In this document: piece by piece, positions 1,563-38,576 of the stretch
Position numbering within the stretch: the stretch's first letter is position 1
Layout: the number at the start of each line of letters is the position of its first letter
DNA from: the human T2T-CHM13v2.0 reference genome, Homo sapiens
Assembly: GCA_009914755.4 (NCBI GenBank)
Contig: CP068257.2
Location: 9,984,001 to 10,048,000 of the forward strand
Length of the DNA: 64,000 nt
Direction of reading: 5' to 3'
Position numbers and translations under genes: made by a program
Notes under the pieces: generated by a model
Told to the model about the DNA's origin: nothing
Databases searched by the model: none
What the model saw: the letters and a program-made list of their open reading frames with translations, nothing else

Positions 1563-1574
1563 AACTGCTCAATC
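1563..1574. repeat. Target-site duplication (left copy) of L1 insertion
   Basis: aactgctcaatc immediately 5' of the L1 and again at 1960-1971 right after the (TAA)n tail. The alpha monomer reads through uninterrupted if the L1 and one copy are removed. Confidence 0.8.
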
Positions 1575-1960
1575 TTCTTAATCCAGTCTATATACACCAT
1601 GGAATACTATGAAGCCATAAAAAGTGATGAGTTCATAACCTTTTTAGGGACATGGATGAAATTGGAAGTCATCATTCTCAGTAAACTATCGCAAGAACAA
1701 AAAACCAAACACCGCATATTCTCACTCATAGGTGGGAATTGAACAATGAGATCACATGGACACAGGAAGGGGAACATCACACTCTGGGGACTGTTGTGGG
1801 GTGGGAGGAGGGGGGAGGGATAGCATTGGGATATATACCTAATGCTAGATGACAAGTTAGTGGGTGCAGCACACCAGCATGGCACATGTATACATATGTA
1901 ACTAACCTGCACAATGTGCACATGTACCCTAAAACTTAAAGTATAATAATAATAATAATA
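1575..1960 (+). mobile_element. LINE-1 (L1PA-type) 5'-truncated 3' end: last ~45 codons of ORF2 + 3'UTR + (TAA)n tail; 17-bp inverted L1 piece at the 5' junction
   Basis: 1592-1940 matches the L1 3' end (tacaccatggaatactatgaagccataaaaag...tcactcataggtgggaattgaacaatgag...gggagggatagcattgggatatatacctaatgctagatgacaagttagtgggtgcagcacaccagcatggcacatgtatacatatgtaactaacctgcacaatgtgcacatgtaccctaaaacttaaagtataat). Tail (ataataataataataataa) at 1943-1960. 1575-1591 (ttcttaatccagtctat) is the reverse complement of the L1 segment just upstream (atagactggattaagaa), i.e. a short 5' inversion. It is flanked by a direct repeat aactgctcaatc at 1563-1574 and 1960-1971 (TSD). The 3'UTR motif ctaatgctagatgacaagttagtggg is the older L1PA type, not L1HS/L1PA2 (aatgtaaatgacgagttaatggg). 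Confidence 0.9.
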
Positions 1961-2192
1961 ACTGCTCAATCAAAAGAAATGTTCAACTTTTTGAGATGAA
2001 CACACACATCACAAAGAAGTTTCTCAGCATGCTTCTATTTTTTATGTGAAGATATTTCCTTTTCCAAAATAGGCCAGAAAGGTCTGCAAATATCCACTTG
2101 CAGATTTTACAAAAAGAGAGAATCAAAACTTCTCAATCAAAAGATAGGTTCAGCTGTGTGAGTCTAATGCAGACATCACAAAAAAGTTTCTG

Positions 2193-5100
2193 AGAATGCT
2201 TCTGTGTAGTTTTTATGTGAAGATATTTCCTTTTCCACCATAGGCCTCAAAGCGCTCCAAATATCCACTTGCAGATTCTACAAAAGAGTGTGTCCAAACT
2301 GGTCAATCAAAAGAAAGGATCAACTCTCTGAGATGAATGCACACATCACAAAGAAGTTTCTCAGAATGCTTCTGTCTAGTTTTTATGTGAAGATATTTTC
2401 TTTTCCACAACAGGCCACAAAGCACTCTAAACATCCACTTGCAGATTCTACAAAAAGACGGTTTCAAAACTGCTCAATCAAAAGAAAGGTTCAACTCTGT
2501 GAGATGAATGTACACATTACAAAGACGTTTCTCAGAATGCTTCTTCATAGTTTTTATGTGAGGATATTTCCTTTTCCACCATAGGTCTAAATGTGCTCCA
2601 AATATCCACTTGCAGATTCTACAAAAAGAGTGATTAAAAACTGCTCAATCAAAGGATAGATTCAACTCGGTGAGATGAATGCACACATCCCAAATAAGTT
2701 TCTCAGAATGCTTCTGTGTAGTTTCTATGTGAAGATATTTCCTTTTCCACCAAAGATCTCAAAGCGCTAAAAATATCCCCTTGGAGATTCTACAAAAAGA
2801 ATGTTTCCAAACTGCTCAATAAAAAGAAAGGTTCAACTCTGTGTGATGAATGCACACGTCACAAAGTAGTTTCTCACAATGCTTCTTTGTAGTTTTTATG
2901 TGAAGATATTTCCTTTTCCACAATAGGCCTCAAAGTGCTCGAAACATTGACTTGCACATTCTACAAAACGAGTGTTTCAAAACTGCTCAATCAAAAGAAA
3001 GGTTCAGCTTTGTGAGATGAATGCACACAACACAAAGAAGTTTCTCAGAATTATTTTGTGTGGTTTTTATGTGAAGATATTTCCTTTTTCACACTTGGCC
3101 ACACAACGCACCAAATATCCACTTACAGAATCTGCAAAGACAGAGTTTCAAAACTGCTCTATAAAAAGATAGGCTCAACCCGGTGACTTGAATGCACACA
3201 TCTCAAAGAGGTGTCTCAGAATGCTTCTGCGTACTTTTTGTAAAGATATTTCCTTTTACACCATTCACCACAAAGTGCTCCAAACATCCACCTGCAGATG
3301 TTACAAAAAGAGTGTTTCCAAACTGATCAATGAAAAGAAAGGTTCAACTCTATGAGACGAATTCACACATCATGAAGAAGTTTCTCACAATACTTTTGTG
3401 TAGTTTTTATGTGAAGATATTTCCTTTTCCAAAATAGGCCTTAAAGGACTCCAAATATCCCCTTGCAGATTCTACAAAAAGGGCGTTTCAAAAGTGCTCA
3501 ATCAAAAGAGAGGTTCAACTCTTTGAGGGGAATGCACGCATAGCAAAGAAGTTTCTCAGAATGCTTCTGTGTAGTTTTTATGTGAAGATATTTCCTTTTC
3601 CACAGTAGGCCTCAAAGGGCTACAAATATACACTTGCAGATTCTACAAAAAGAGTGTTTCAAAACTGTTCAATCAAAAGAAAGGTTCAAGTCTGTGAGTT
3701 GAATGCACACATCATAAAGAAGTTTCTCAGAATGCTTATGTGCAGTTTTTATGTGAAGATATTTCCTTTTCCACAATTTGCCTCAAAGCACTCCAAATAT
3801 CCACCTGCAGATTCTGTAAAGATTGTTTCCAAACTGCTCAAAGAAAAGAAAGGTTCAACTTCGTGAGATTAATGCACTCATCACAAAGTAGTTTATCAGA
3901 ATGCTTCTGTGTCATTTTTATGTGAAGATATTTTCTTTTCCACAGTAGGCCTCAAAGTGTTTCAAATATCCACTTGCTTATTCTATTAAAAGAGAGTTTC
4001 CAAACTGTTCAGTCTAAAGAAAGGTTCAACTCTGTGAGATGAATGTGCACATCACAAAGAAGTTTCTCAGAGTTCTTCTGTGTAGTTTTTATGTGAAGGT
4101 ATTTCCTTTTACACAGTAGGCCACAAAGGGCTCCAAATATTCACCTGCAGATTCTCCAAAAAGAGAGTTTCTAAAATCCTCTACCAATAGATAGGTACAA
4201 CTCTGTGAGTTGAATGCACACATCACAAAGAAGTTTCTCAGAATGCTTCTGTGTAGTTTTTATGTGAAGATATTTCAATTTCCACAATAGTCCTCAAAGC
4301 GCTCTAAATATCCACTTTTAGATTCTACTAAAGAGTGTTTTCAAACTGCTCAATCAAAAGAATGGTAAAACACTGTGAGATGAATGCAAAAATCACAAAG
4401 AAGTTTCTCAGAATGCTTCTGTGTAGTTTTCATATGAAGATATTTCCTTTTCCACAATGGGCCTCAAAGCGCTCTGTGAGATGAATGCACACGTCACAAG
4501 ACATTTCCCAGAATGATTCTGTGTACTTTTCCTGTGAAGATACTTCCTTTTCCACAATAGTCCTCAAAGCTTTCCAAATATCCACTTGCAGATTCTACAA
4601 AAAGTGTGTTTCAAAAGTGCTCAATCAAAAGAAATGTTCTACTCTGTGAGATGAATGCAACATCACCAAGAAGTTTCTCAGAATGCTTCCGTGTAGTTTT
4701 TATGTGAAGATATTTCCTTTTACACCATAGACCTCAAATCGCTCCAACTATCCACTTGCAGATTCTACAAAAAGAGTGTTTCCAAACTGCTCATTCAAAA
4801 GAAAACTTCAACTCTGTGGGATGAGTAAACACCTCGCAAAGAAGTTTCACAGAATGATTCTGTGTAGTTTTTATGTGAAGATATTTCCTTTTCCACAATA
4901 GGCCTCAAAGCACCCCTAATATCCACTTGCAGATTCTACAAAAAGAGTGTTTCAAAACTGCTCAATCAAAAAAAGTTTCAATTCTTTGAGTTGAAAGCAT
5001 ACATCACAAAGAACTTTCTAAGAATGCTTCTGTATAGTTTTTATGTGAAGATATTTCATTTTCCACAATAGGCCTCAAAGAGCTCCAAATGTCCACTTCT

Positions 5101-8100
5101 AGTCACTACAAAAAGAGAGTTTCCAAAGTGCTAATGAAAAGAAGGGTTCAATTCTGTGAGATGAATGCATACATCACAAAGAAGTTTCTCAGAATGCTTC
5201 TGATTACTTTTTATGTGAAGATATTTCCTTTTCCACAATAGACCTCAAAGGGCTCCAAATATCCACTTTCAGATTGTACTAGAAGAGTGTTTCAAAAATG
5301 CTCAATCAAAAGAAAGTTTCAACTTTGTGAGGTGAATGCACACATCACAAGAAATTTCTCAGAATGCTTCTGTGTAATTTTTATGTGAACATACTTCCCT
5401 TTCCACAATAGTCAACAAAGCCCTGCAAATATACACTTGCACATTCTAGAAAAAGAGTGTTTCAAAACTGCTCAATCAAAAGAATGTTTCAACCCTGTGA
5501 GGTGAATGCACACATCACAAAGAAGTTTCTCAGAATGCTTCCGAGTAGTTTTTATGTGAAGATATTTCCTTTTCAACCGTAGGCCTAAAAGCACTCCAAC
5601 TATTCACTTGCAGATTCTACAAAAAGAGTGTTTCCAAACTGCTCAATCAAAAGAAAACTTCAACTCCATGAGGTGAGTAAACACAATGCAAATAAGTTTC
5701 ACAGAATGATTCTCCATAGTTTTTATGTGAAGATATTTCCTTTTCCACCACAAGCCGCAAATGTCTTTAAATATCCACTTCCAGGTTCTACAAAAAGAGA
5801 TATTCAAAACTGCTTAATCAAAAGGTAGGTTCGACTCTGTGAGTTGAATGCATACATCACAAAGTAGTTTCTCAGAACGCTTCTGTGTAGTTTTTATGTG
5901 AAGATATTTCCTTTTACACCATAGGCCTCAAAGCGCTCCAAATATCCACCTGGAGATTCCAAGAAAAGAGAAATTCAAAACTGCTTATCAAAAGATAGGT
6001 TCAACTCCGAGAGTTGAATGCACACATCACAAATAAGTTTCTAAGAATGCTTCTGTGTATTTTTTATGTGCAGAAATTACCTTTTCCTCAGTACACCTTA
6101 CAGAGCTGCAAATATCTACCTGCAGATCGCACTAAAAGAGTATTTCAAAACTGCACAATCAAAAGAAAGGTTCACCTCTGTGAAATGAATTCACACATCA
6201 CAAAAAGTATCTCAGACTGTTCCTGTGTAGTTTTTATGTGAAGATACTTCCTTTTACACAATAGCTGTCAAACGCTCCAAATATCCACTAGAAGATTCTA
6301 CAAAAAGAGTATTTCAAAACTGCTTAAACAAAAGAATGCTTCAACTCTGTCAGATGAATGCACACATCACAAAGAAGTTTCTCTGAATGCTTCTGTGTAG
6401 TTTTTATGTGAAGATATTTCCTTTTCCACTGTAGGCTGCAAAAGGCTCCAAATATCCACATGGAGATTCTACAAAAAGAATGTTTCCAAACTGGTCAATG
6501 AAAAGAAAGATACAACTCTGTGAGTTGAATGCACACATCACAAAGAAGTTTCTCAGAATTCTACTGTGTAGTTTCTATGTGTAGATATTTTCTTTTCCAC
6601 AAAAGGCCTCAAAGCGTTCCAATTATCCACTTGCAGATTCTACAAAAAGATTGTTACAAAACTGCTCAATGAAAAGAACGGTTCAACTCAGTGGGTGGAA
6701 TGCACACATCACAAAGAAGTTTCTCAGAATGTTTATGTGTAATTTTTATGTGAAGATAGTTCCTTTTCCGCAATAGGCCTCAAAGCGCTCCAAATATCTA
6801 CTTGCAGATTCTACAAAAAGTGTTTTTCAAAACTGCTCAATCAAAGCAAAAGTTCAACTCTGAGATGAATGCCCACATCACAAAGAAGTTTCTCAGAATG
6901 CTTCTGTGTAGTTTTCATGTGAAGATAATTCGTTTTCCACAATAGGCCTCAAAGCACCCCAAATATCCATTGCATATTCTACTAAAAGCATGTTATAAAA
7001 CTGCTGAATCAAAAGAAAGGTTCAACTCTGTGAGATGAATGCACAAGTCAAAATAAAGTATCTCAGAATGATTCTGTGTAGTTTTTGATGAAGATACTTC
7101 CTTTTCCACAAAAGACCTTAAAGGGCTCCTAATATCCACTTGCAGATTCTACAAAAAGAGAGATTCAAAACTGCTCAATCAAAAGATAGGTTCAACTGTG
7201 TGAGTTGAATGCACACATCACAAAGAAGTTTCTCAGAATGCTTCTGTGCAGTTTTTATGTGAAGATACATGCTTTTCCACAGTAGGCCTCGAAGCGCACC
7301 AAATATCCACTTGTAGATTCTACAAAAAGAGTGTTTCCAAACTGCTCAATCAAAAGCAAGTTTCAACTCTGTGAGATGAATGCACATAACACAAAGTAGT
7401 TTCTCAGAATGCTTCTGTGTATTTTTTGTGTGAAGATATTTCCTTTTCCACAATAGGCCTCAAAGCCCCCCAAATATCCACTTGAAGATTCTACAAAAAG
7501 AGGGTTTTAAAACTGCTCAATCAAAAGAAAGTTTCAACTCTGTGAGATGTATGCACACATCACAAAAAAGTTTCTCAGAATCCTTCTGTGTAGTTTTTCT
7601 GTGAAGATATTTCCTTTTCCAGAATAGCCCTCAAGGCGCTCCAAATATCCACTTGAAGATTCTGCAAAAAGAGTATTTCAAAACTGCTTAATCAAAAGAA
7701 TGCTTCAACTCCGTGTGATGAATGCACATATCACAAAGAAGTTTCTCAGAATGCTACTGTGTAGTTTTTACGTGAAGATATTTCCTTTTCCACCATAGGC
7801 TGCTACGTGGTCCAAATATCCACCTGCAGATTTTACAAAAGGAGAGTTTCAAAACTTCTCAATGAAAAGATAGGTTCAACTATGTGAGTTGAATGCACAC
7901 ATCACAAAGAAGTTTCCCAGAATGCTTCTGTGTAGTTTTTATGTAAAGATATTTCCTTTCTCAAATAGGCCTCAAAGTCCTGTAAATATACACTTCCGGA
8001 TTCTACAAAAGAGTGTTTCAAAGCTGCTCAATCGAAGGAAAATTTCAACTCTTTGTGATGTATGCACTCATCACAAAGTAGTTTCTGTGAATGCTTCTGT

Positions 8101-11100
8101 GTAGTTTTTATGTGAAGATATTTCCTTTTTCACAACTCCAAATATCCACTTCCAGATTCTACAAAAAGAGAGTTTCAAAACTGCTCAATCAAGAGATAGG
8201 TTCAACCCTGTGAGTTGAATGCACACATCAGAAAAAAGTTTCTGAAAATGCTTCTGTGTAGTTTTTATGTGAAGGTATTTCCTTTTCCAACATAGGCCTC
8301 AAAGTGATCAAATTATCCACCTGAAGATTCTACAAAAAGTGTGTTTCCAAACTGTTCAATGAAAAGAAAGGTTCAACCCTGTGAGATGAATGCACACATC
8401 ACAAGGAAGTTTCTCAGAATGGTTCTGTGTAGTTTTTATGTGAAGATGTTTCCCTTTACACGATAGGCCTCAAAGGGCTCCAAATATCCAGTTGAAGATT
8501 ATACAAAAAGAGTGTGTCCAAACTGCTGAATCAAAAGGAAAGTTCAGCTCTGTGAGATAAAAGTACACATCACAAAGAAGTTTCTCAGAATGCTTCTGTG
8601 TAGTTTTTATGTGAAGATGTTTCCTTTTCCACCATAGGCCGCCAAGGTCTCCAAGTATCCACTTTCAGATTCTACAAAAAGAGAGATTCAAAAGTGCTCA
8701 ATCAAAAGATAGATTCAAAACTGTGAGTTAAATGCACACATAACAATGAAGTTTCTCAGAATACTTCTGTGTAGTTTTTATGTGAAGATATTTCCTTTTA
8801 CACAATACGCCTCAAAGCACTAAAAATATCCACTTGCAGATTCTACAAAAATAGTGTTTTAAAACTGCTCAATCAAAAGAAAGTTTCAACTCTGTGAGGT
8901 GAATGCCCACATCACAAAGAAGTTTCTTAGATTGTTTATGTGTAGTTTTTATGTGAAGATATTTACTTTTCCACTGTCGGCCTCAAAGTGCTCCAAATAT
9001 CAACTTATAGACTCGCAAAAACAGTGTTTCAAAACCGCTTAATGAAAAACTAGGTTCATCTCTGTGAGATGAAGGCACACATCACAAAGAAGTTTCTCAG
9101 AATGCTTCTGTGTAGTTTTTATGGGAAGATAATTCCTGTTCCAAAATAGGCCTCAAAGCCCTCCAGATATCCACTTGCAGACTCTACAAAAAGTGTGTTT
9201 CATAACTGTTCAGTCAAAGAAATTTTCAACTCTGTGTGGTGAATGGACTCATCACAAAGTAGTTTCTCAGAATGCTTCTGTGTAGTTTTTTTGGGAAGAT
9301 ATTTCCTTTATCACAAGAGGCCACAAAGGGCTCCTAATATCCACTTGCAGATTCTACAAAAAGAGAGATTCAAAACTGCTCAATCAAAAGATAGGTTCAG
9401 CTCTGTGTGATTAATGCACTCATCACAAAGAAGTTTCTCAGAATGCTTCTGTGCAGTTTTTATGTGAAGATACATGCTTTTCCACAATAGTCCTCAAAGT
9501 GCTCCAAATTTCCACTTGCAGATTTTATAAAAAGATTGTTTCAAAAGTGCTCAATCATAAGATAGGTTCAACTCTGTAAGATGAATGCACACATCAAAAA
9601 GAAGTTTCTCAGAATGCTTCTATGTAGTTTTTACTTGAAGATATTTCCTTTTCCACCTTATGCTGTAAAGGGCTCCAAATATCCACTTGTAGATTCTTCA
9701 AAAAGAGAGATTCAAAACTGCTCAATCAAAAGATAGATTTAACTACGTGAGTTGAATGCACATATCTTAAAGATGTGTCTCAGAATGCTTCTGTCAGAAA
9801 GCTTCTGTGCAGTTTTTATTGGAAGATATTTCCTTTTCCTCTATAGGCTGCGAAGGGCTACATATATCCACTTGCAGATTCTACAAACAGAGAGATTCAA
9901 AACTGCTCAATCAAAAGATAGGTTCAACCTTGTGAGTTGAATGCACACATCACAAAGTAGTTTCTCAGAATGCTTCTGTGTATTTTTTATGTGAAGATAT
10001 TTACTTTTCCACAATAGGCCTCAAAGAGCTCCAAATATCCACTTGTAGATACACAAAAAGAGTGTTTCAAAACTTCTCAATCAAAGGAAAGGTTCAACTC
10101 TTTGAGATGAATGCGCCCATCACAAAGAAGTTTCTCAGAATGCCTCTGTGTAGTTTTTATTTGAAGATATTTGCTTTTCCGCAGTAGGCCTCAAAGCACT
10201 CCAAATATCCAGTTGCAGATTCTACAAAAATAGTGTTTCAAAAGTGCTCAATCAAACAAAAGTTCAACTCTGTGAGATGAATGCACACATCACAAAGAAG
10301 TTTCTGAGAATGCTTCTGTGTAGTTTTTATATGAAGATATTTCCTTTTCCACAATAAACCTCAAAGTGCTCCAAATATCCACTTGCAGATTCTACAAAGA
10401 GAGTGTTTCAAAACTGCTCAATCATAAGATAGGTTCCACACAGTGAGATGAATGCACAAATAACAAAGAAGTTTCTCAGAATGCATCTGTGTTGTTTTTA
10501 TTTTTAGATGTTTCCTTTTACTGCATAGGCTGCAAAGGGCTCAAAATATCCACCTGCAGATTCTACAAAAAGAGAGATTCAAAACTGCTCCATCAAAAGA
10601 AAGGCTCAACTCTGTGAGATGAATGCACACATCACAAAGAAGTTTCTCAGAATGCTTCTGTGTAGTTTTCATGTGAAGATATTGCTTTTCCACAGTAGCC
10701 CTCAAACCGCTCCAAATATCCACTTGCAGATTCTTCAAAAGCAGTGTTTCAAAACAGCTCAATCAAAATAAACGTTCAACTCTGTGAAATGAATGCACTC
10801 ATCACAAAGAAGTTTCTCAGAATTCTTCTGTGCAGTTTTTATGTGAAATTATTTCCTTTTCCACCACAGGCTGCAAAGGGCTCCAAATATCCACTTGCAG
10901 ATTCTACAATAAGAGAGATTGAAAACTGCACAATCAAAAGATAGGTTCAACTCTCCTAGTTGAATGCACACAGCACAAAGAATTTCCTCAGAATGCTTCT
11001 GTGTAGTTTTCTTTGGAAGATATTTCCTTTTCCACCATAGGACCCAAACTCTCTAAATATCCACTAGCAGATTCTACAAAAAGAGTGTTTCCAAACTGCT

Positions 11101-11159
11101 CAGTCAAAAGAAAGGTTCAACTCTGTGAGATGAATGCAAACATCGCCTAGAAGTTTCTC
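2193..11159. repeat. Tandem segmental duplication, copy 1 (8967-bp unit, ~52.4 alpha monomers)
   Basis: Every spot-check of x versus x+8967 is identical (e.g. 2581/11548, 6001/14968, 8101/17068, 10501/19468). All ORFs of the six-frame track recur with exactly +8967 offset and identical translations. Identity starts at 2193 (mismatch at 2192 vs 11159) and ends at 11195 vs 20162 (mismatch at 11196 vs 20163). Confidence 0.9.
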
Positions 11160-14100
11160 AGAATGCTTCTGTGTAGTTTTTATGTGAAGATATTTCCTTT
11201 TCCACCATAGGCCTCAAAGCGCTCCAAATATCCACTTGCAGATTCTACAAAAGAGTGTGTCCAAACTGGTCAATCAAAAGAAAGGATCAACTCTCTGAGA
11301 TGAATGCACACATCACAAAGAAGTTTCTCAGAATGCTTCTGTCTAGTTTTTATGTGAAGATATTTTCTTTTCCACAACAGGCCACAAAGCACTCTAAACA
11401 TCCACTTGCAGATTCTACAAAAAGACGGTTTCAAAACTGCTCAATCAAAAGAAAGGTTCAACTCTGTGAGATGAATGTACACATTACAAAGACGTTTCTC
11501 AGAATGCTTCTTCATAGTTTTTATGTGAGGATATTTCCTTTTCCACCATAGGTCTAAATGTGCTCCAAATATCCACTTGCAGATTCTACAAAAAGAGTGA
11601 TTAAAAACTGCTCAATCAAAGGATAGATTCAACTCGGTGAGATGAATGCACACATCCCAAATAAGTTTCTCAGAATGCTTCTGTGTAGTTTCTATGTGAA
11701 GATATTTCCTTTTCCACCAAAGATCTCAAAGCGCTAAAAATATCCCCTTGGAGATTCTACAAAAAGAATGTTTCCAAACTGCTCAATAAAAAGAAAGGTT
11801 CAACTCTGTGTGATGAATGCACACGTCACAAAGTAGTTTCTCACAATGCTTCTTTGTAGTTTTTATGTGAAGATATTTCCTTTTCCACAATAGGCCTCAA
11901 AGTGCTCGAAACATTGACTTGCACATTCTACAAAACGAGTGTTTCAAAACTGCTCAATCAAAAGAAAGGTTCAGCTTTGTGAGATGAATGCACACAACAC
12001 AAAGAAGTTTCTCAGAATTATTTTGTGTGGTTTTTATGTGAAGATATTTCCTTTTTCACACTTGGCCACACAACGCACCAAATATCCACTTACAGAATCT
12101 GCAAAGACAGAGTTTCAAAACTGCTCTATAAAAAGATAGGCTCAACCCGGTGACTTGAATGCACACATCTCAAAGAGGTGTCTCAGAATGCTTCTGCGTA
12201 CTTTTTGTAAAGATATTTCCTTTTACACCATTCACCACAAAGTGCTCCAAACATCCACCTGCAGATGTTACAAAAAGAGTGTTTCCAAACTGATCAATGA
12301 AAAGAAAGGTTCAACTCTATGAGACGAATTCACACATCATGAAGAAGTTTCTCACAATACTTTTGTGTAGTTTTTATGTGAAGATATTTCCTTTTCCAAA
12401 ATAGGCCTTAAAGGACTCCAAATATCCCCTTGCAGATTCTACAAAAAGGGCGTTTCAAAAGTGCTCAATCAAAAGAGAGGTTCAACTCTTTGAGGGGAAT
12501 GCACGCATAGCAAAGAAGTTTCTCAGAATGCTTCTGTGTAGTTTTTATGTGAAGATATTTCCTTTTCCACAGTAGGCCTCAAAGGGCTACAAATATACAC
12601 TTGCAGATTCTACAAAAAGAGTGTTTCAAAACTGTTCAATCAAAAGAAAGGTTCAAGTCTGTGAGTTGAATGCACACATCATAAAGAAGTTTCTCAGAAT
12701 GCTTATGTGCAGTTTTTATGTGAAGATATTTCCTTTTCCACAATTTGCCTCAAAGCACTCCAAATATCCACCTGCAGATTCTGTAAAGATTGTTTCCAAA
12801 CTGCTCAAAGAAAAGAAAGGTTCAACTTCGTGAGATTAATGCACTCATCACAAAGTAGTTTATCAGAATGCTTCTGTGTCATTTTTATGTGAAGATATTT
12901 TCTTTTCCACAGTAGGCCTCAAAGTGTTTCAAATATCCACTTGCTTATTCTATTAAAAGAGAGTTTCCAAACTGTTCAGTCTAAAGAAAGGTTCAACTCT
13001 GTGAGATGAATGTGCACATCACAAAGAAGTTTCTCAGAGTTCTTCTGTGTAGTTTTTATGTGAAGGTATTTCCTTTTACACAGTAGGCCACAAAGGGCTC
13101 CAAATATTCACCTGCAGATTCTCCAAAAAGAGAGTTTCTAAAATCCTCTACCAATAGATAGGTACAACTCTGTGAGTTGAATGCACACATCACAAAGAAG
13201 TTTCTCAGAATGCTTCTGTGTAGTTTTTATGTGAAGATATTTCAATTTCCACAATAGTCCTCAAAGCGCTCTAAATATCCACTTTTAGATTCTACTAAAG
13301 AGTGTTTTCAAACTGCTCAATCAAAAGAATGGTAAAACACTGTGAGATGAATGCAAAAATCACAAAGAAGTTTCTCAGAATGCTTCTGTGTAGTTTTCAT
13401 ATGAAGATATTTCCTTTTCCACAATGGGCCTCAAAGCGCTCTGTGAGATGAATGCACACGTCACAAGACATTTCCCAGAATGATTCTGTGTACTTTTCCT
13501 GTGAAGATACTTCCTTTTCCACAATAGTCCTCAAAGCTTTCCAAATATCCACTTGCAGATTCTACAAAAAGTGTGTTTCAAAAGTGCTCAATCAAAAGAA
13601 ATGTTCTACTCTGTGAGATGAATGCAACATCACCAAGAAGTTTCTCAGAATGCTTCCGTGTAGTTTTTATGTGAAGATATTTCCTTTTACACCATAGACC
13701 TCAAATCGCTCCAACTATCCACTTGCAGATTCTACAAAAAGAGTGTTTCCAAACTGCTCATTCAAAAGAAAACTTCAACTCTGTGGGATGAGTAAACACC
13801 TCGCAAAGAAGTTTCACAGAATGATTCTGTGTAGTTTTTATGTGAAGATATTTCCTTTTCCACAATAGGCCTCAAAGCACCCCTAATATCCACTTGCAGA
13901 TTCTACAAAAAGAGTGTTTCAAAACTGCTCAATCAAAAAAAGTTTCAATTCTTTGAGTTGAAAGCATACATCACAAAGAACTTTCTAAGAATGCTTCTGT
14001 ATAGTTTTTATGTGAAGATATTTCATTTTCCACAATAGGCCTCAAAGAGCTCCAAATGTCCACTTCTAGTCACTACAAAAAGAGAGTTTCCAAAGTGCTA

Positions 14101-17100
14101 ATGAAAAGAAGGGTTCAATTCTGTGAGATGAATGCATACATCACAAAGAAGTTTCTCAGAATGCTTCTGATTACTTTTTATGTGAAGATATTTCCTTTTC
14201 CACAATAGACCTCAAAGGGCTCCAAATATCCACTTTCAGATTGTACTAGAAGAGTGTTTCAAAAATGCTCAATCAAAAGAAAGTTTCAACTTTGTGAGGT
14301 GAATGCACACATCACAAGAAATTTCTCAGAATGCTTCTGTGTAATTTTTATGTGAACATACTTCCCTTTCCACAATAGTCAACAAAGCCCTGCAAATATA
14401 CACTTGCACATTCTAGAAAAAGAGTGTTTCAAAACTGCTCAATCAAAAGAATGTTTCAACCCTGTGAGGTGAATGCACACATCACAAAGAAGTTTCTCAG
14501 AATGCTTCCGAGTAGTTTTTATGTGAAGATATTTCCTTTTCAACCGTAGGCCTAAAAGCACTCCAACTATTCACTTGCAGATTCTACAAAAAGAGTGTTT
14601 CCAAACTGCTCAATCAAAAGAAAACTTCAACTCCATGAGGTGAGTAAACACAATGCAAATAAGTTTCACAGAATGATTCTCCATAGTTTTTATGTGAAGA
14701 TATTTCCTTTTCCACCACAAGCCGCAAATGTCTTTAAATATCCACTTCCAGGTTCTACAAAAAGAGATATTCAAAACTGCTTAATCAAAAGGTAGGTTCG
14801 ACTCTGTGAGTTGAATGCATACATCACAAAGTAGTTTCTCAGAACGCTTCTGTGTAGTTTTTATGTGAAGATATTTCCTTTTACACCATAGGCCTCAAAG
14901 CGCTCCAAATATCCACCTGGAGATTCCAAGAAAAGAGAAATTCAAAACTGCTTATCAAAAGATAGGTTCAACTCCGAGAGTTGAATGCACACATCACAAA
15001 TAAGTTTCTAAGAATGCTTCTGTGTATTTTTTATGTGCAGAAATTACCTTTTCCTCAGTACACCTTACAGAGCTGCAAATATCTACCTGCAGATCGCACT
15101 AAAAGAGTATTTCAAAACTGCACAATCAAAAGAAAGGTTCACCTCTGTGAAATGAATTCACACATCACAAAAAGTATCTCAGACTGTTCCTGTGTAGTTT
15201 TTATGTGAAGATACTTCCTTTTACACAATAGCTGTCAAACGCTCCAAATATCCACTAGAAGATTCTACAAAAAGAGTATTTCAAAACTGCTTAAACAAAA
15301 GAATGCTTCAACTCTGTCAGATGAATGCACACATCACAAAGAAGTTTCTCTGAATGCTTCTGTGTAGTTTTTATGTGAAGATATTTCCTTTTCCACTGTA
15401 GGCTGCAAAAGGCTCCAAATATCCACATGGAGATTCTACAAAAAGAATGTTTCCAAACTGGTCAATGAAAAGAAAGATACAACTCTGTGAGTTGAATGCA
15501 CACATCACAAAGAAGTTTCTCAGAATTCTACTGTGTAGTTTCTATGTGTAGATATTTTCTTTTCCACAAAAGGCCTCAAAGCGTTCCAATTATCCACTTG
15601 CAGATTCTACAAAAAGATTGTTACAAAACTGCTCAATGAAAAGAACGGTTCAACTCAGTGGGTGGAATGCACACATCACAAAGAAGTTTCTCAGAATGTT
15701 TATGTGTAATTTTTATGTGAAGATAGTTCCTTTTCCGCAATAGGCCTCAAAGCGCTCCAAATATCTACTTGCAGATTCTACAAAAAGTGTTTTTCAAAAC
15801 TGCTCAATCAAAGCAAAAGTTCAACTCTGAGATGAATGCCCACATCACAAAGAAGTTTCTCAGAATGCTTCTGTGTAGTTTTCATGTGAAGATAATTCGT
15901 TTTCCACAATAGGCCTCAAAGCACCCCAAATATCCATTGCATATTCTACTAAAAGCATGTTATAAAACTGCTGAATCAAAAGAAAGGTTCAACTCTGTGA
16001 GATGAATGCACAAGTCAAAATAAAGTATCTCAGAATGATTCTGTGTAGTTTTTGATGAAGATACTTCCTTTTCCACAAAAGACCTTAAAGGGCTCCTAAT
16101 ATCCACTTGCAGATTCTACAAAAAGAGAGATTCAAAACTGCTCAATCAAAAGATAGGTTCAACTGTGTGAGTTGAATGCACACATCACAAAGAAGTTTCT
16201 CAGAATGCTTCTGTGCAGTTTTTATGTGAAGATACATGCTTTTCCACAGTAGGCCTCGAAGCGCACCAAATATCCACTTGTAGATTCTACAAAAAGAGTG
16301 TTTCCAAACTGCTCAATCAAAAGCAAGTTTCAACTCTGTGAGATGAATGCACATAACACAAAGTAGTTTCTCAGAATGCTTCTGTGTATTTTTTGTGTGA
16401 AGATATTTCCTTTTCCACAATAGGCCTCAAAGCCCCCCAAATATCCACTTGAAGATTCTACAAAAAGAGGGTTTTAAAACTGCTCAATCAAAAGAAAGTT
16501 TCAACTCTGTGAGATGTATGCACACATCACAAAAAAGTTTCTCAGAATCCTTCTGTGTAGTTTTTCTGTGAAGATATTTCCTTTTCCAGAATAGCCCTCA
16601 AGGCGCTCCAAATATCCACTTGAAGATTCTGCAAAAAGAGTATTTCAAAACTGCTTAATCAAAAGAATGCTTCAACTCCGTGTGATGAATGCACATATCA
16701 CAAAGAAGTTTCTCAGAATGCTACTGTGTAGTTTTTACGTGAAGATATTTCCTTTTCCACCATAGGCTGCTACGTGGTCCAAATATCCACCTGCAGATTT
16801 TACAAAAGGAGAGTTTCAAAACTTCTCAATGAAAAGATAGGTTCAACTATGTGAGTTGAATGCACACATCACAAAGAAGTTTCCCAGAATGCTTCTGTGT
16901 AGTTTTTATGTAAAGATATTTCCTTTCTCAAATAGGCCTCAAAGTCCTGTAAATATACACTTCCGGATTCTACAAAAGAGTGTTTCAAAGCTGCTCAATC
17001 GAAGGAAAATTTCAACTCTTTGTGATGTATGCACTCATCACAAAGTAGTTTCTGTGAATGCTTCTGTGTAGTTTTTATGTGAAGATATTTCCTTTTTCAC

Positions 17101-20100
17101 AACTCCAAATATCCACTTCCAGATTCTACAAAAAGAGAGTTTCAAAACTGCTCAATCAAGAGATAGGTTCAACCCTGTGAGTTGAATGCACACATCAGAA
17201 AAAAGTTTCTGAAAATGCTTCTGTGTAGTTTTTATGTGAAGGTATTTCCTTTTCCAACATAGGCCTCAAAGTGATCAAATTATCCACCTGAAGATTCTAC
17301 AAAAAGTGTGTTTCCAAACTGTTCAATGAAAAGAAAGGTTCAACCCTGTGAGATGAATGCACACATCACAAGGAAGTTTCTCAGAATGGTTCTGTGTAGT
17401 TTTTATGTGAAGATGTTTCCCTTTACACGATAGGCCTCAAAGGGCTCCAAATATCCAGTTGAAGATTATACAAAAAGAGTGTGTCCAAACTGCTGAATCA
17501 AAAGGAAAGTTCAGCTCTGTGAGATAAAAGTACACATCACAAAGAAGTTTCTCAGAATGCTTCTGTGTAGTTTTTATGTGAAGATGTTTCCTTTTCCACC
17601 ATAGGCCGCCAAGGTCTCCAAGTATCCACTTTCAGATTCTACAAAAAGAGAGATTCAAAAGTGCTCAATCAAAAGATAGATTCAAAACTGTGAGTTAAAT
17701 GCACACATAACAATGAAGTTTCTCAGAATACTTCTGTGTAGTTTTTATGTGAAGATATTTCCTTTTACACAATACGCCTCAAAGCACTAAAAATATCCAC
17801 TTGCAGATTCTACAAAAATAGTGTTTTAAAACTGCTCAATCAAAAGAAAGTTTCAACTCTGTGAGGTGAATGCCCACATCACAAAGAAGTTTCTTAGATT
17901 GTTTATGTGTAGTTTTTATGTGAAGATATTTACTTTTCCACTGTCGGCCTCAAAGTGCTCCAAATATCAACTTATAGACTCGCAAAAACAGTGTTTCAAA
18001 ACCGCTTAATGAAAAACTAGGTTCATCTCTGTGAGATGAAGGCACACATCACAAAGAAGTTTCTCAGAATGCTTCTGTGTAGTTTTTATGGGAAGATAAT
18101 TCCTGTTCCAAAATAGGCCTCAAAGCCCTCCAGATATCCACTTGCAGACTCTACAAAAAGTGTGTTTCATAACTGTTCAGTCAAAGAAATTTTCAACTCT
18201 GTGTGGTGAATGGACTCATCACAAAGTAGTTTCTCAGAATGCTTCTGTGTAGTTTTTTTGGGAAGATATTTCCTTTATCACAAGAGGCCACAAAGGGCTC
18301 CTAATATCCACTTGCAGATTCTACAAAAAGAGAGATTCAAAACTGCTCAATCAAAAGATAGGTTCAGCTCTGTGTGATTAATGCACTCATCACAAAGAAG
18401 TTTCTCAGAATGCTTCTGTGCAGTTTTTATGTGAAGATACATGCTTTTCCACAATAGTCCTCAAAGTGCTCCAAATTTCCACTTGCAGATTTTATAAAAA
18501 GATTGTTTCAAAAGTGCTCAATCATAAGATAGGTTCAACTCTGTAAGATGAATGCACACATCAAAAAGAAGTTTCTCAGAATGCTTCTATGTAGTTTTTA
18601 CTTGAAGATATTTCCTTTTCCACCTTATGCTGTAAAGGGCTCCAAATATCCACTTGTAGATTCTTCAAAAAGAGAGATTCAAAACTGCTCAATCAAAAGA
18701 TAGATTTAACTACGTGAGTTGAATGCACATATCTTAAAGATGTGTCTCAGAATGCTTCTGTCAGAAAGCTTCTGTGCAGTTTTTATTGGAAGATATTTCC
18801 TTTTCCTCTATAGGCTGCGAAGGGCTACATATATCCACTTGCAGATTCTACAAACAGAGAGATTCAAAACTGCTCAATCAAAAGATAGGTTCAACCTTGT
18901 GAGTTGAATGCACACATCACAAAGTAGTTTCTCAGAATGCTTCTGTGTATTTTTTATGTGAAGATATTTACTTTTCCACAATAGGCCTCAAAGAGCTCCA
19001 AATATCCACTTGTAGATACACAAAAAGAGTGTTTCAAAACTTCTCAATCAAAGGAAAGGTTCAACTCTTTGAGATGAATGCGCCCATCACAAAGAAGTTT
19101 CTCAGAATGCCTCTGTGTAGTTTTTATTTGAAGATATTTGCTTTTCCGCAGTAGGCCTCAAAGCACTCCAAATATCCAGTTGCAGATTCTACAAAAATAG
19201 TGTTTCAAAAGTGCTCAATCAAACAAAAGTTCAACTCTGTGAGATGAATGCACACATCACAAAGAAGTTTCTGAGAATGCTTCTGTGTAGTTTTTATATG
19301 AAGATATTTCCTTTTCCACAATAAACCTCAAAGTGCTCCAAATATCCACTTGCAGATTCTACAAAGAGAGTGTTTCAAAACTGCTCAATCATAAGATAGG
19401 TTCCACACAGTGAGATGAATGCACAAATAACAAAGAAGTTTCTCAGAATGCATCTGTGTTGTTTTTATTTTTAGATGTTTCCTTTTACTGCATAGGCTGC
19501 AAAGGGCTCAAAATATCCACCTGCAGATTCTACAAAAAGAGAGATTCAAAACTGCTCCATCAAAAGAAAGGCTCAACTCTGTGAGATGAATGCACACATC
19601 ACAAAGAAGTTTCTCAGAATGCTTCTGTGTAGTTTTCATGTGAAGATATTGCTTTTCCACAGTAGCCCTCAAACCGCTCCAAATATCCACTTGCAGATTC
19701 TTCAAAAGCAGTGTTTCAAAACAGCTCAATCAAAATAAACGTTCAACTCTGTGAAATGAATGCACTCATCACAAAGAAGTTTCTCAGAATTCTTCTGTGC
19801 AGTTTTTATGTGAAATTATTTCCTTTTCCACCACAGGCTGCAAAGGGCTCCAAATATCCACTTGCAGATTCTACAATAAGAGAGATTGAAAACTGCACAA
19901 TCAAAAGATAGGTTCAACTCTCCTAGTTGAATGCACACAGCACAAAGAATTTCCTCAGAATGCTTCTGTGTAGTTTTCTTTGGAAGATATTTCCTTTTCC
20001 ACCATAGGACCCAAACTCTCTAAATATCCACTAGCAGATTCTACAAAAAGAGTGTTTCCAAACTGCTCAGTCAAAAGAAAGGTTCAACTCTGTGAGATGA

Positions 20101-20162
20101 ATGCAAACATCGCCTAGAAGTTTCTCAGAATGCTTCTGTGTAGTTTTTATGTGAAGATATTT
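11160..20162. repeat. Tandem segmental duplication, copy 2 (identical to 2193-11195)
   Basis: Same as copy 1. The identical span is 9003 bp = period 8967 + 36 bp. The extra 36 bp (agaatgcttctgtgtagtttttatgtgaagatattt) is a conserved monomer block present at both edges (2193-2228 and 20127-20162), consistent with unequal exchange within that block. Confidence 0.9.
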
Positions 20163-23100
20163 TCTTTTCCTAAATAGTCCTCAAAGCACCGCAAATATCC
20201 ACTTGCAGATTCTACAAAAAGAATGTTCCAAAGCTGCTCAATCAAAAGAAAGGTTCAATTCTGTGAGATGAATTCACACATCACAAAGCAGTTTCTCAGA
20301 ATGCTTCTGTGTAGTTTTTATATGAAGATACTTGTTTTTCCACAGTAGACCTCCAAGCGCTCAAAATATCCACTTGCAGATTCTACAAAAACAGTGTTTC
20401 ATAACTGCTAAATTGAAAGAAATGTTCAACTATTTGAGATGAATGTACACATCACAAAGGAGTTTCTCAGAATGCTTCTGTGTAATTTTTATGTGAAGAT
20501 ATTTCCTTTTCCACAATAGGCCACAAAGCGCTCAAAATATCCATGTGCTGATTCTACAAAAACAGAGTTTCAAAACTGCTCAATCATAAGATAGGTTCAA
20601 CTCTGTGAGATGAATGCTGACATAACAAAGATGTTTCTCAGAATGTTTCTGTGTAGTTTTTATTTGAAGATATTTCCTTTTCCAAAATAGGCAGCAAAGG
20701 GCTCCAAATATCCACTTGCAGATTCTGCAAAAAGAGAAATTCAAAACTCCTCAATCAAAAAACAGGTTCAACTCTGTGAGTTGAATGCACACATCACAAA
20801 TACGTTTCTCAGAATGCTTCTGTGTAGTTCTTATGTGAAGATATTTCCTTTTACACAGGAGACCTCAAAGGCCTCCACATATCCACTTGCAGATTCTACA
20901 AAAAGTGTGTTGCAAAACTGCTCAATCAAAAGAAAGGTTCAACTCTGTGAGATGAATGCACACATCGAAAAGAAGATTCTCAGAATGCTTCTTTGTAGTT
21001 TTTATGTGAAGATATTTGCTTTTCCACAGTAGGCCTCAAAATACTCCAAATATCCAATTGCAGATTCTACAAAGAGAGTGTTTCCAAACTGCTAAATCAT
21101 AAGATAGGTTCAACTCTGTGAGATGAATGCACACATCACAAAGAAGTTTCTCAGAATGCTTCTGTGTAGTTTTTATGTGAAGATATTTCCCTTTACACAA
21201 TGGGCTTCAAAGTGCTCCAAATATCCACTTGCAGATTCAACAAAAAGAGTGTTTCAAAACTGCTCGGTCATAAGATAGGATAAATTCTATGAAATGAATG
21301 CATACATCACAAACAAGTTTCTCAGAATGCTTCTGTGTAGTTTTTATTTGAAGATATTTCCTTTTCCACGCTAGGCTGCAAAGGGCTCCAGATATCCACT
21401 TGCAGATTCTAGAAACAGAGAGATTCAAAACTGCTCAATCAAAGGATAGGTTCAACTCCATAAGATGAATGCACACATCACAAAGAACTTTCTCAGAATG
21501 CTTTTGCATAGTTTTTATGTGAAGATATTTCCTTTTCCACAATGGCATCAAAGCGCTCCATATATCCACTTGCAGATTCTACAAAAAGAGTTTTTCAAAA
21601 CTGCACTGTCAAAAGAAAAGTTCAACTCTGTGAGATGAATGCCCACATCACTAAGAAGTTTCTCAGAAGGCTTCTGTGTATTTTTTATGTGAAGATATTT
21701 GCTTTTCCAAAGTAGACCCCAAAGTGCTCCAAATATGCACTTGCAGATTCTTCAACAAGACTGTTTCGAAACTGCTCAATCAAAAGAAGTGTTCAACTCT
21801 GTTTGATGAATGCACTCATCACAAAGATGTTTCTCAGAATGCTTCTGTGAAGTTTTTATGTGAAGATATTTCCTTTTCCACCATAGGCCACAAAGGGCTC
21901 AAAATATCCACTTGCAGATTTTACAGAAAGAGAGATTCAAAACTGCTCAATCAGAAGGTATGTTGAAATCTGTGAGACGAATGCACTCATCACAAAGAAG
22001 TTTCTCAGTATGCTTCTGTGTAGTTTTTATGTGAAGATATATCCTTTTCCACAAAAAGCCTCAAAACGCTCCAAATACCCACTTGCAGATTCTACAAAGA
22101 GAGTGTTTCAAAACAGCTAAATCATAAGATAGGTTCAATTCTGTGAGATGAATGCACACATCCCAAAGAAGTTTCTCAGAATGCTTCTGTGTAGTTTTTA
22201 TGTTAAGATATTTCCTTTTCCACAATAGGCTTGAAAGTGCTCCAATTATCCACTTTCAGATTCTACAAAAAGAATGTTTCAGAACTGATCAATCATAAGA
22301 TAGGTTCAACTCTGCGAGATGAATGCACACATCACAAAGATATTTATCAGAAGGATTCTGTGTAGTTTTTATCCGAAGATACTTGCTTTTCCACAGATGG
22401 CCTCAAAGCACTCCAAATATCCACTTGCAGATTCAATAAAAACAGTGTTTCAAAACTGCTGAATCAAAAGAAAGGTTCAACTCTGTGAGATGAATGCACG
22501 CATCACAAAGAAGTTTCTCAGAATGCTTCTGTGTAGTTTTTAATTGAAGGTATTTCCTTTTCCTCCATGGGCTGCAAAGGGCTCCAAATATCCACTTGCA
22601 GCTTCTACAAAAAGAGAGATTCAAAACTGCTCAATCAAAAGATAAGTTCACCTCTGTGAGTCTAATGCACACATCACAAAGTAGTTTCTCAGAATGCTTC
22701 TGTGTAGTTTTTATGTGTAGATATTTCGTTTTCCACAATAGACCTCAAAGCTTTCCAAATATCCACTTGCAGATTCTACAAAAAGAGGGTTGCAAAACTG
22801 CTCATTCAACGGAAATTTCAACTCTTTTAGATGAATGCACACATCACAAAGAAATTACTCAGAATGCTTCTGTGTAGTTTTTATGTGAAGATATTTGCTT
22901 TTCCATAGTAGGCCTCAAAGTGCTCCAATATCCACTTGTAGGTTTTACGAAAACAGTGTTTCAAAACTGTCCAATCAAAGGAAAGTATCAACTCTGTGAG
23001 ATGAATGCACACATCATGAAGAAGTTTCTCAGAATACTTCCATATAATTTTAATGTGAAGACATTTGCCTTTCCACCGGAGGCCTCAAAGCACTCCAAAT

Positions 23101-37924: not shown

Positions 37925-38238
37925 GGCCGGGCACGGTGGCTCACGCCTGTAATCCCAGCACTTTGGGAGGCCGAGGCGGGTGGATCATGAGGTCAGGAGA
38001 TCGAGACCATCCTGGCTAAAACGGTGAAACCCCGTCTCTACTAAAAATACAAAAAATTAGCCGGGCGCGGTGGCGGGTGCCTGTAGTCCCAGCTACTCGG
38101 GAGGCTGAGGCAGGAGAATGGCGTGAACCTGGGAAGCGGAGCTTGCGGTGAGCCGAGATTGCGCCACTGCAGTCCGCAGTCTGACCTGGGCGACAGAGCG
38201 AGACTCCGTCTCAAAAAAAAAAAAAAAAAAAAAAAAAC
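37925..38238 (+). mobile_element. Full-length Alu, AluYb8-like (young, human-lineage subfamily), with 26-nt poly-A tail and 14-bp TSD
   Basis: ggccgggcacggtggctcacgcctgtaatcccagcactttgggaggccgaggcgggtggatcatgaggtcaggagatcgagaccatcc...gggaagcggagcttgcggtgagccgagattgcgccactgcagtccgcagtctgacctgggcgacagagcgagactccgtctc followed by (A)26 at 38213-38238. It carries the Yb-diagnostic 7-bp duplication gcagtccgcagtc and Yb-type substitutions (gggtggatcatgagg, gggaagcggag, gcggtgagccgagattgcg). Flanking direct repeat aactggtcaatcaa at 37911-37924 and 38237-38250. Confidence 0.9.
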
Positions 38239-38574: not shown

Positions 38575-38576
38575 TG
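38575..38576. other. Orientation-switch junction (head-to-head) in alpha satellite
   Basis: The left side ends mid-monomer at ...gtgtttcagaactg (expected continuation ctcaatcaaaag). The right side begins ggacagaaacactctgacaaacttctttgtgatgtgtgccttcatctcacggagttgaac, the reverse-complement orientation of a different monomer position. No filler or other sequence at the junction. Confidence 0.85.

What the first reader, a model, noticed from the sequence alone, without database searches (positions are those of the whole stretch)
2193..20162. Base-perfect 8967-bp tandem duplication inside otherwise diverged monomeric alpha satellite
Two adjacent copies of an ~9-kb segment (~52.4 monomers, including a ~70-bp deleted monomer at 4455/13422 and a 13-bp micro-duplication at 9775/18742) are identical at every position I checked. 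Neighbouring monomers elsewhere in the same array are visibly diverged. The identity extends exactly 36 bp beyond one period on each side, and those 36 bp (agaatgcttctgtgtagtttttatgtgaagatattt) are a conserved monomer block. This is the signature expected from unequal sister-chromatid or homologous exchange between misaligned monomers. Zero divergence implies a very recent event, or an assembly artefact.
Basis: seen in the sequence. Interest (0 to 1): 0.7.

Follow-up and report, generated by a model that had tools for sequence, protein, structure and literature searches.

The report
Perfect 9-kb duplication in old alpha satellite
A 53-repeat (8,967-bp) block of old, decayed primate centromere-flanking satellite DNA is present twice in a row without a single difference. 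The join has the form left by a misaligned exchange between two repeats. It is a clean but ordinary example of how satellite arrays gain copies.

Summary
Window base i equals base i+8967 for 9003 consecutive positions (2193-11195 against 11160-20162) with 0 mismatches. The next-longest exact self-match at any offset is 287 bp.

The unit is exactly 53 alpha-satellite monomer slots, in register. It lies in a monomeric array with no higher-order repeat (HOR), no CENP-B box, and a mean monomer identity of 83.4% (maximum 94.1%).

The junction monomer (11067-11236) is a clean chimera. Its left 93 bp match the distal parental monomer and its right 41 bp match the proximal one. The single switch lies inside a 36-bp block that both parents share. 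Flanks at the 53-monomer offset sit at background identity, so no older duplication underlies this one.

Best reading: one recent tandem duplication by short-homology-guided unequal exchange or template switch, probably between sister chromatids.
- The 95% upper age bound is about 0.1-0.4 Myr.
- 36 bp of identity in an 84% context is far below what I recall as the requirement for canonical homologous recombination. The junction resembles Alu/Alu-mediated rearrangements more than textbook non-allelic homologous recombination (NAHR).

Assembly error, especially a wrong copy number, cannot be excluded without reads, but a blind mis-join is unlikely. The kind of event is known and the interest is low to moderate.

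The parts
2193..11159 (+). Copy 1 of the 8967-bp unit (53 monomer slots, all alpha satellite, no transposable element inside)
   Evidence: identical to 11160-20126 at every base, and nhmmer coverage of this stretch is continuous.
11160..20126 (+). Copy 2 of the 8967-bp unit
   Evidence: 0 mismatches to copy 1.
2193..2228 (+). 36-bp shared block, first occurrence (inside parental monomer A). It marks the left limit of the identity.
   Evidence: base 2192 is G, against C at 11159.
11160..11195 (+). 36-bp shared block, second occurrence. The exchange point lies somewhere within it.
20127..20162 (+). 36-bp shared block, third occurrence (inside parental monomer B). It marks the right limit of the identity.
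   Evidence: base 20163 is T, against C at 11196 and 2229.
2100..2269 (+). Parental monomer A (proximal). Its right part, after the 36-mer, is reused in the junction monomer.
11067..11236 (+). Junction monomer J, a chimera of B-left (93 bp, 19 informative sites), the 36-mer and A-right (41 bp, 8 informative sites).
20034..20203 (+). Parental monomer B (distal), 84.1% identical to A. Its left part is reused in the junction monomer.
4320..4586 (+). Internal marker: a 70-bp deletion spanning a monomer boundary (junction at about 4472). It is repeated at 13287-13553.
9782..9809 (+). Internal marker: an imperfect 14-bp micro-duplication (AGAATGCTTCTGTC / AGAAAGCTTCTGTG). It is repeated at 18749-18776.
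7997..8150 (+). Internal marker: a monomer with a 14-bp deletion (at about 8135). It is repeated at 16964-17117.

Best explanation
This is a single, evolutionarily recent, direct tandem duplication of 53 monomers (8967 bp) inside an old, non-HOR, A-type monomeric alpha-satellite layer of a primate (probably human) pericentromere.

Shown by the sequence:
- There are two base-identical copies.
- Both breakpoints lie at the same monomer position.
- One chimeric junction monomer has a single switch inside a 36-bp block shared by the two parental monomers.
- No bases are inserted at the junction.
- The flanks are at background similarity.

Inferred: a broken or stalled 3' end in the distal monomer B paired with the identical 36-bp block of monomer A, 53 monomers upstream, most likely on the sister chromatid. 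Synthesis or resolution from there re-copied the intervening 8967 bp. The event was guided by short homology in a homeologous (84% identical) context. It therefore works like an Alu/Alu-mediated rearrangement or template switch, or like an unequal sister-chromatid exchange with a very short identity tract. It does not look like classic long-homology NAHR.

The duplication has no function of its own. It is a copy-number variant and a small-scale instance of the process that expands satellite arrays.
For: - Exact 9003-bp identity at offset 8967. The next-best exact run is 287 bp.
- The unit is 53 monomer slots with breakpoints at model positions 94-129 in all three monomers.
- J equals B on the left at 19/19 informative sites and equals A on the right at 8/8, with no difference inside the 36-mer.
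- Flank monomer pairs at offset 53 are 0.76-0.88 identical, which is the background level (mean 0.834), so there is no older underlying duplication.
- A 36-bp shared exact block is in the top 3.8% of monomer pairs (median 20 bp).
- In the reconstructed ancestral array, at the 53-monomer register, the A/B block is the longest shared block from 10 monomers before to 11 after the breakpoint, and one of only three at or above 36 bp among 89 pairs (maximum 40).
- The same window holds older, smaller tandem duplications at 92-97% identity, so such events recur in this array.
- Zero differences in 8967 bp give a 95% upper age of 388 kyr at 1.25e-8 per bp per generation, and 97 kyr at 4x that rate. 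The 1.1-4.1x range for centromere flanks is from PMC11062924.
- Allelic identity of monomeric alpha satellite is 99.8% (PMC11062924). An inter-homologue exchange would therefore be expected to leave about 18 differences, which favours a sister-chromatid or replicative event.
- Chimeric repeats with junction microhomology between roughly 80-90%-identical elements are the hallmark of Alu/Alu-mediated rearrangements, attributed to MMBIR, SSA or MMEJ (PMC6071635).
Against: - No reads or second assembly could be examined. Neither the existence of two copies in the organism nor the exact copy number is independently verified.
- Scans for the junction in public contigs found no copy of this locus.
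- The pathway (crossover, template switch or annealing) leaves the same product and cannot be resolved from one haplotype.
- The enrichment for a long identity block is modest (about the top 4%).
- 36 bp is longer than most Alu/Alu junction microhomologies, the majority of which are under 25 bp (PMC6071635).
- Consensus polishing could have erased a few true differences between the copies, which would make the event look younger than it is.
Confidence: 0.78

Rival explanations
1. Assembly artefact. The organism has one copy and the assembler duplicated it, or it has three or more perfect copies that were collapsed to two.
For: - Perfect identity over 9 kb is what a false duplication would also show.
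- False duplications are documented in long-read assemblies (PMC10172123).
- With identical 9-kb units, reads shorter than about 18-20 kb cannot count copies.
- No independent sequence of the locus was found.
Against: - An end-to-end join of overlapping contigs gives a duplicate of arbitrary length. Here the period is exactly in monomer register (about a 1/171 chance), and the identity extends 36 bp further through a block that only about 4% of monomer pairs share.
- There are no Ns or gaps.
- The chimeric monomer J (B-left plus A-right) cannot arise from single-copy reads. Long-read assemblers do not join on 36-bp overlaps in 84%-identical sequence (inference).
- The one-copy version is therefore unlikely. 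A wrong copy number (three or more) remains possible.
Confidence: 0.12
2. An old 53-monomer duplication whose two copies were later made identical by gene conversion or concerted evolution.
For: Gene conversion is one of the processes invoked for alpha-satellite homogenisation (PMC2729386). Older small duplications exist in the window.
Against: - Conversion tracts would have to cover all 8967 bp and stop exactly at the duplication boundaries.
- Identity drops from 100% to background (0.81-0.88) in the very next monomer on both sides.
- No mosaic of converted and unconverted segments is seen.
- The other duplications in the array have simply decayed to 92-97%.
Confidence: 0.03
3. Classical meiotic NAHR between homologous chromosomes (unequal crossing-over between alleles).
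For: It gives the same end product: a direct tandem duplication with a hybrid repeat at the junction. It is the textbook model for satellite copy-number change.
Against: - The identity tract is only 36 bp within 84%-identical monomers. This is far below the roughly 200-300 bp of uninterrupted identity usually quoted for efficient mammalian homologous recombination (from my own knowledge; PMC6071635 cites that literature).
- The two copies would derive from different homologues, with about 18 differences expected at 99.8% allelic identity (PMC11062924), yet none is seen.
- Meiotic crossing-over is generally suppressed near centromeres (established knowledge).
Confidence: 0.07

Closest known systems
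Unequal (sister-chromatid) exchange in tandem repeats, the classical model of satellite expansion and of alpha-satellite homogenisation
   Same: The product is a direct, head-to-tail, in-register duplication of a whole number of monomers, with a hybrid monomer at the join.
   Different: It occurs in a 'dead' monomeric layer where homogenisation is described as having stopped (PMC2729386). It used only 36 bp of identity in 84%-identical sequence, and it produced two copies, not an array.
Alu/Alu-mediated rearrangements (AAMR) and transposable-element-mediated rearrangements (PMC6071635, PMC9675761)
   Same: The substrates are homeologous, same-orientation repeats. The join is a single chimeric repeat with a stretch of perfect microhomology and no inserted bases, and the product is a kilobase-scale copy-number variant.
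   Different: The substrates are tandem satellite monomers rather than dispersed SINEs. The product is a duplication, whereas the 219-event training catalogue in PMC6071635 consists of deletions. The 36-bp microhomology is at the long end of the range, since the majority are under 25 bp.
Alpha-satellite higher-order repeats (HORs) and 'zones of recent duplication' in active arrays (10.1101/2021.07.12.452052)
   Same: A multi-monomer unit is repeated at near-100% identity while monomers within the unit are about 16% diverged.
   Different: There are only 2 copies. The unit has 53 monomers, longer than the canonical human HORs I recall (from memory, not tested). There are no CENP-B boxes. The setting carries L1/Alu insertions and an inversion, which is typical of inactive layers.
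False duplications in long-read assemblies (Flagger class 'falsely duplicated', PMC10172123)
   Same: Two adjacent, perfectly identical copies.
   Different: The boundaries are homology-defined and in repeat register, with a biologically sensible chimeric monomer. There is no gap or contig end.

Membership tests
Monomeric (non-HOR) alpha satellite, A-type old layer | Tandem monomers of about 171 bp | tested here: met
   TRF period 171 across 1-63055. nhmmer finds 365 monomers.
Monomeric (non-HOR) alpha satellite, A-type old layer | No higher-order periodicity; monomers roughly 70-85% identical | tested here: met
   Mean identity is 0.83-0.84 at every offset from 1 to 60 once copy 2 is removed, with a maximum of 0.941. 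This compares with the M1 layer at 0.845 and the V1 layer at 0.818 in PMC2729386 Table 3.
Monomeric (non-HOR) alpha satellite, A-type old layer | pJalpha-type box present, CENP-B box absent | tested here: met
   There are 0 matches to TTCGNNNNANNCGGG and 145 matches to TTCCTTTTYCACCRTAG at up to 1 mismatch. The motif definitions are from my own knowledge.
Monomeric (non-HOR) alpha satellite, A-type old layer | Interrupted by transposable elements and strand inversions, as described for divergent alpha satellite | tested here: met
   L1 3' fragments lie at 1573-1958 and 33451-34328, an Alu at 37925-38234, and an inverted block at 38568-50316. These features are described in 10.1101/2021.07.12.452052.
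Monomeric (non-HOR) alpha satellite, A-type old layer | Assignment to a named suprachromosomal family (SF4/M1, SF6/V1 and so on) | not testable with these tools
   No reference monomer HMMs or consensus set were available. Only the identity level is suggestive.
NAHR-type tandem duplication (unequal homologous exchange) | Direct-orientation paralogous substrates, with breakpoints at equivalent positions | tested here: met
   All three monomers are on the + strand and break at model positions 94-129.
NAHR-type tandem duplication (unequal homologous exchange) | Hybrid repeat at the junction with a single switch and no added bases | tested here: met
NAHR-type tandem duplication (unequal homologous exchange) | Long tract of uninterrupted identity (of order 200 bp or more) and high overall identity between the substrates | tested here: not met
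   The longest shared block is 36 bp and A versus B is 84.1% identical. The threshold is from my own knowledge of the literature.
NAHR-type tandem duplication (unequal homologous exchange) | Reciprocal deletion allele in the population | not testable with these tools
   A degenerate pattern that would also match the A-left/B-right deletion junction found no such sequence. However, the locus itself is absent from those collections.
Short-homology / homeology-mediated rearrangement (AAMR-like; MMBIR, SSA, MMEJ) | Chimeric repeat formed from diverged same-orientation repeats, with a perfect microhomology tract at the join | tested here: met
   Definition as in PMC6071635.
Short-homology / homeology-mediated rearrangement (AAMR-like; MMBIR, SSA, MMEJ) | Direct evidence of the replicative pathway (templated insertions, complex joins, de novo occurrence) | tested here: not met
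   The junction is simple, with no insertion or inversion. This neither excludes nor demonstrates a template switch.
Higher-order repeat array | Many tandem copies of a multi-monomer unit at about 95-100% identity | tested here: not met
   There are only 2 copies, and the third-period flanks are at background identity.
Assembly false duplication | Half-normal read depth, with no read spanning both copies | not testable with these tools
   No reads are available.
Assembly false duplication | Arbitrary boundaries, or a gap or contig end at the join | tested here: not met
   There are no Ns. The join is in exact monomer register, within a shared 36-mer.

The most novel reading that the evidence does not exclude
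The duplication is real and is the first step of renewed amplification in a supposedly 'dead' monomeric layer. It would be a nascent 53-monomer higher-order unit, longer than the canonical human HORs I recall. It would show that multi-kilobase homogenisation still operates outside active centromeres, using only a few tens of bp of identity. It would then be polymorphic (1, 2, 3 or more copies) in the population.
Probability: 0.1. Interest if true: 0.45.

Novelty: new member of a known kind. Interest (0 to 1): 0.27.

Why it matters
If real, this is an unusually clean, base-resolved product of an unequal exchange in satellite DNA. Both parental monomers, the hybrid monomer and the exact 36-bp exchange window are all visible, because the surrounding array is diverged enough to be informative.

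It shows that kilobase-scale duplication can still occur in old monomeric layers that are described as no longer homogenised. It also shows that about 36 bp of identity in 84%-identical sequence can suffice.

In practice it is a likely copy-number polymorphism and a place where assemblies and read mapping can go wrong. It does not change the current understanding of satellite evolution.

Tried and rejected
1. I looked for an independent copy of the locus or junction. A degenerate 73-nt pattern matching A, J, B and the reciprocal deletion junction was scanned.
   - Metagenome contigs gave 11 hits. All are other alpha-satellite loci with consensus-like flanks, and almost all of their alignments to the window are only 85-90% identical. 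The pattern was too permissive at the degenerate positions.
   - Genome contigs gave 0 hits.
   - The exact J pattern in viral contigs gave 0 hits.
2. I tried to use exact-protein look-up of an ORF across the junction to reach other public assemblies. No ORF of 30 aa or more spans the junction, so this was not possible.
3. I checked for an older, larger duplication underlying the perfect one. This is rejected, because the flanks at the 53-monomer offset are at background identity.
4. I checked for HOR or dimeric structure. TRF's period-342 rows suggested dimers, but identity by offset differs by less than 0.01 between odd and even offsets, so this is rejected.
5. Rfam at gathering thresholds gave no hits.
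6. Suprachromosomal-family assignment was not possible. The supplements of PMC2729386 that are held as text list no file of consensus monomers (only the list of files was read).
7. The first self-BLAST listing missed the smaller 92-97% duplications. They were recovered later from the monomer identity matrix.
Full report
**Observation**

Comparing the window with itself at an offset of 8967 bp gives one uninterrupted identity run of 9003 bp (2193-11195 = 11160-20162), with no mismatch and no Ns. It was the only self-BLAST hit kept at >=93% identity and >=400 bp, although that listing missed smaller 92-97% duplications described below. Across all offsets from 100 to 30000 the next-longest exact run is 287 bp. 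At the array's background identity the chance probability is about 10^-710.

**What the sequence is**

TRF finds a 171-bp period over 1-63055, and an nhmmer search with a monomer seed places 365 alpha-satellite monomers.
- The + strand of 1-38560 and of 50316-63055 is antisense to the usual alpha-satellite consensus orientation. Block 38568-50316 is inverted.
- The array is interrupted by an L1 3' fragment at 1573-1958 with a target-site duplication, a second L1 3' fragment in the opposite orientation at 33451-34328, and a full Alu with a 15-bp target-site duplication at 37925-38234.
- It ends at 63055 against a (TGGAA)n-type human-satellite-like repeat.
- There is no CENP-B box core anywhere, while 145 monomers keep a pJalpha-type motif within one mismatch.
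- All-against-all monomer identities average 0.834 (sd 0.03, max 0.941). With copy 2 removed they show no periodicity at any offset from 1 to 60.

This is a monomeric, A-type, 'old' alpha-satellite layer. Its identity level lies between the values reported for the M1 (0.845) and V1 (0.818) layers (PMC2729386). Inversions and L1 insertions are the described hallmarks of such divergent layers (10.1101/2021.07.12.452052). The Alu carries the GCAGTCC duplication that I recall as diagnostic of the largely human-specific AluYb lineage. That points to human, but it rests on memory and not on a test.

**Anatomy of the duplication**

The unit is exactly 53 monomer slots: monomer index 10 maps to 63 and then to 116. 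All three boundary monomers break at model positions 94-129.

The length is 8967 bp rather than 53 x 171 = 9063 bp, largely because of three internal features, each present in both copies:
- a 70-bp deletion across a monomer boundary (about 4472/13439);
- a 14-bp deletion (about 8135/17102);
- a 14-bp imperfect micro-duplication (9782-9809/18749-18776).

Aligning the three boundary monomers gives the following picture.
- A (2100-2269) and B (20034-20203) are 84.1% identical. They differ at 19 sites left of the 36-mer and 8 sites right of it, and at none within it.
- The middle monomer J (11067-11236) equals B at all 19 left sites and A at all 8 right sites.
- The ancestral arrangement was therefore L-A-U-B-R and the present one is L-A-U-J-U-B-R. 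There was one switch inside the 36-mer and no inserted bases.
- Monomer pairs just outside the duplication, at the same 53-monomer offset, are 0.76-0.88 identical, which is background. No older, larger duplication guided the event, and there is no partial third copy.

**Was the exchange site special?**

Among 2500 random monomer pairs from this array the longest shared exact block has a median of 20 bp, and only 3.8% of pairs reach 36 bp. I then reconstructed the ancestral array and compared monomers at the 53-monomer register. The A/B pair has the longest shared block from 10 monomers before to 11 after the breakpoint. It is one of only three pairs at or above 36 bp among 89 (maximum 40). The exchange therefore used an unusually long stretch of perfect identity for this sequence. 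The enrichment is modest.

**Mechanism**

Two points refine this.

First, 36 bp of identity embedded in 84%-identical DNA is far below the uninterrupted identity usually quoted for efficient mammalian homologous recombination (my own knowledge). The junction has the form described for Alu/Alu-mediated rearrangements: a chimeric repeat with a short perfect microhomology between diverged repeats. Those are attributed to template switching (MMBIR), single-strand annealing or microhomology-mediated joining (PMC6071635). The majority of those microhomologies are under 25 bp, so 36 bp is at the long end.

Second, the two copies are identical, whereas two human haplotypes differ by about 0.2% in monomeric alpha satellite (PMC11062924). 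An exchange between ordinary homologues would have left about 18 differences. That favours a sister-chromatid or replicative event.

The pathway itself is inferred. Crossover, break-induced replication or template switching, and excision followed by reintegration all give the same product.

**Age**

With no difference in 8967 bp, a Poisson bound gives a median of about 90 kyr and a 95% upper limit of about 388 kyr at 1.25e-8 per bp per generation. At a four-fold higher rate the figures are 22 and 97 kyr. The 1.1-4.1-fold range for centromere flanks comes from PMC11062924. About 108 differences would be expected at human-chimpanzee divergence. The event is therefore lineage-specific and recent, and it could also be somatic or cell-line specific. 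It need not be only a few generations old. Consensus polishing could have hidden a handful of true differences.

**Context within the window**

The array holds other, smaller tandem duplications that have since decayed:
- a 5-monomer unit of about 2.2 copies at 44843-46724 (97.2%);
- a 3-monomer unit at 43644-44841 (95.0%);
- an out-of-register 278-bp unit at 60207-60760 (95.6%);
- two at about 92% (40225-41764, and 57037-57888 against 58746-59595).

Local duplication has therefore recurred since the array stopped being homogeneous. The 53-monomer event is the largest and the youngest.

**Artefact?**

No reads were available. Scans of public contig collections for the A, J, B or reciprocal junction returned only unrelated alpha-satellite loci or nothing. 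No ORF of usable length crosses the junction for an exact-protein look-up.

Sequence logic argues against a blind mis-join.
- Such a duplicate would have an arbitrary length. This one is in exact monomer register (about a 1/171 chance) and ends in a block shared by only about 4% of monomer pairs.
- There is no gap.
- The chimeric monomer could not be assembled from single-copy reads, because nothing else in the region is more than 94% identical.
- A wrong copy number (three or more perfect units collapsed to two) cannot be excluded.

**Verdict**

In kind it is a known process: copy-number change in tandem repeats by misaligned exchange. It is seen here in an old monomeric layer that is generally described as no longer homogenised (PMC2729386). 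That makes it a neat, informative example, but not a surprise.

Noticed in passing
window 38568-50316: An 11.7-kb block of 69 alpha-satellite monomers is inverted relative to the rest of the array. Both breakpoints truncate monomers: model positions 3-116 at 38568, and position 66 onward at 50316. An Alu insertion lies about 330 bp upstream of the left breakpoint.
   Followed up: partly
window 37925-38234: A full-length Alu on the + strand has an A tail of about 26 bases and a 15-bp target-site duplication (aaactggtcaatcaa). It carries the GCAGTCC tandem duplication that I recall as diagnostic of the mostly human-specific AluYb lineage. This suggests a human source and a young insertion. The subfamily call is from memory and was not tested.
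   Followed up: no
window 1573-1958 and 33451-34328: Two 5'-truncated L1 3'-end fragments interrupt the array. One is on the + strand with a (TAA)n tail and a target-site duplication (aactgctcaatc), 235 bp upstream of the duplication's left edge. The other, 878 bp long, is on the - strand. Neither lies inside the duplicated unit. Subfamilies were not determined.
   Followed up: partly
window 63056-64000: The alpha satellite ends abruptly at 63055 and a degenerate (TGGAA)n human-satellite-2/3-like repeat begins. A roughly 60-bp Alu-like fragment lies at about 63840-63900 within it.
   Followed up: no
window 44843-46724: An older 5-monomer (856-bp) tandem unit is present in about 2.2 copies at 97.2% identity. 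It holds the second-longest exact self-match in the window (287 bp). A 3-monomer duplication at 95% identity lies next to it at 43644-44841.
   Followed up: partly
window 60207-60760: A 278-bp tandem duplication (2.0 copies, about 95.6% identity) is not a multiple of the monomer length. It breaks the monomer phase at about 60448-60465. This is an out-of-register event, in contrast to the in-register 53-monomer one.
   Followed up: partly
window 35050 and 56368: There are further monomer phase breaks. One is a deletion of about 76 bp, where model position 148 jumps to 54 at 35050. The other is a junction of about 40 bp at 56365-56368. They resemble the 70-bp deletion inside the duplicated unit.
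   Followed up: no
L001-L011 (metagenome contigs, e.g. VNIW01002092.1, ERZ1034300 NODE-308): Eleven contigs deposited as metagenome assemblies consist at least partly of primate alpha satellite; for most of them only a small fraction aligned to this window, at roughly 85-90% identity. They are presumably host (human) contamination of those metagenomes.
   Followed up: partly
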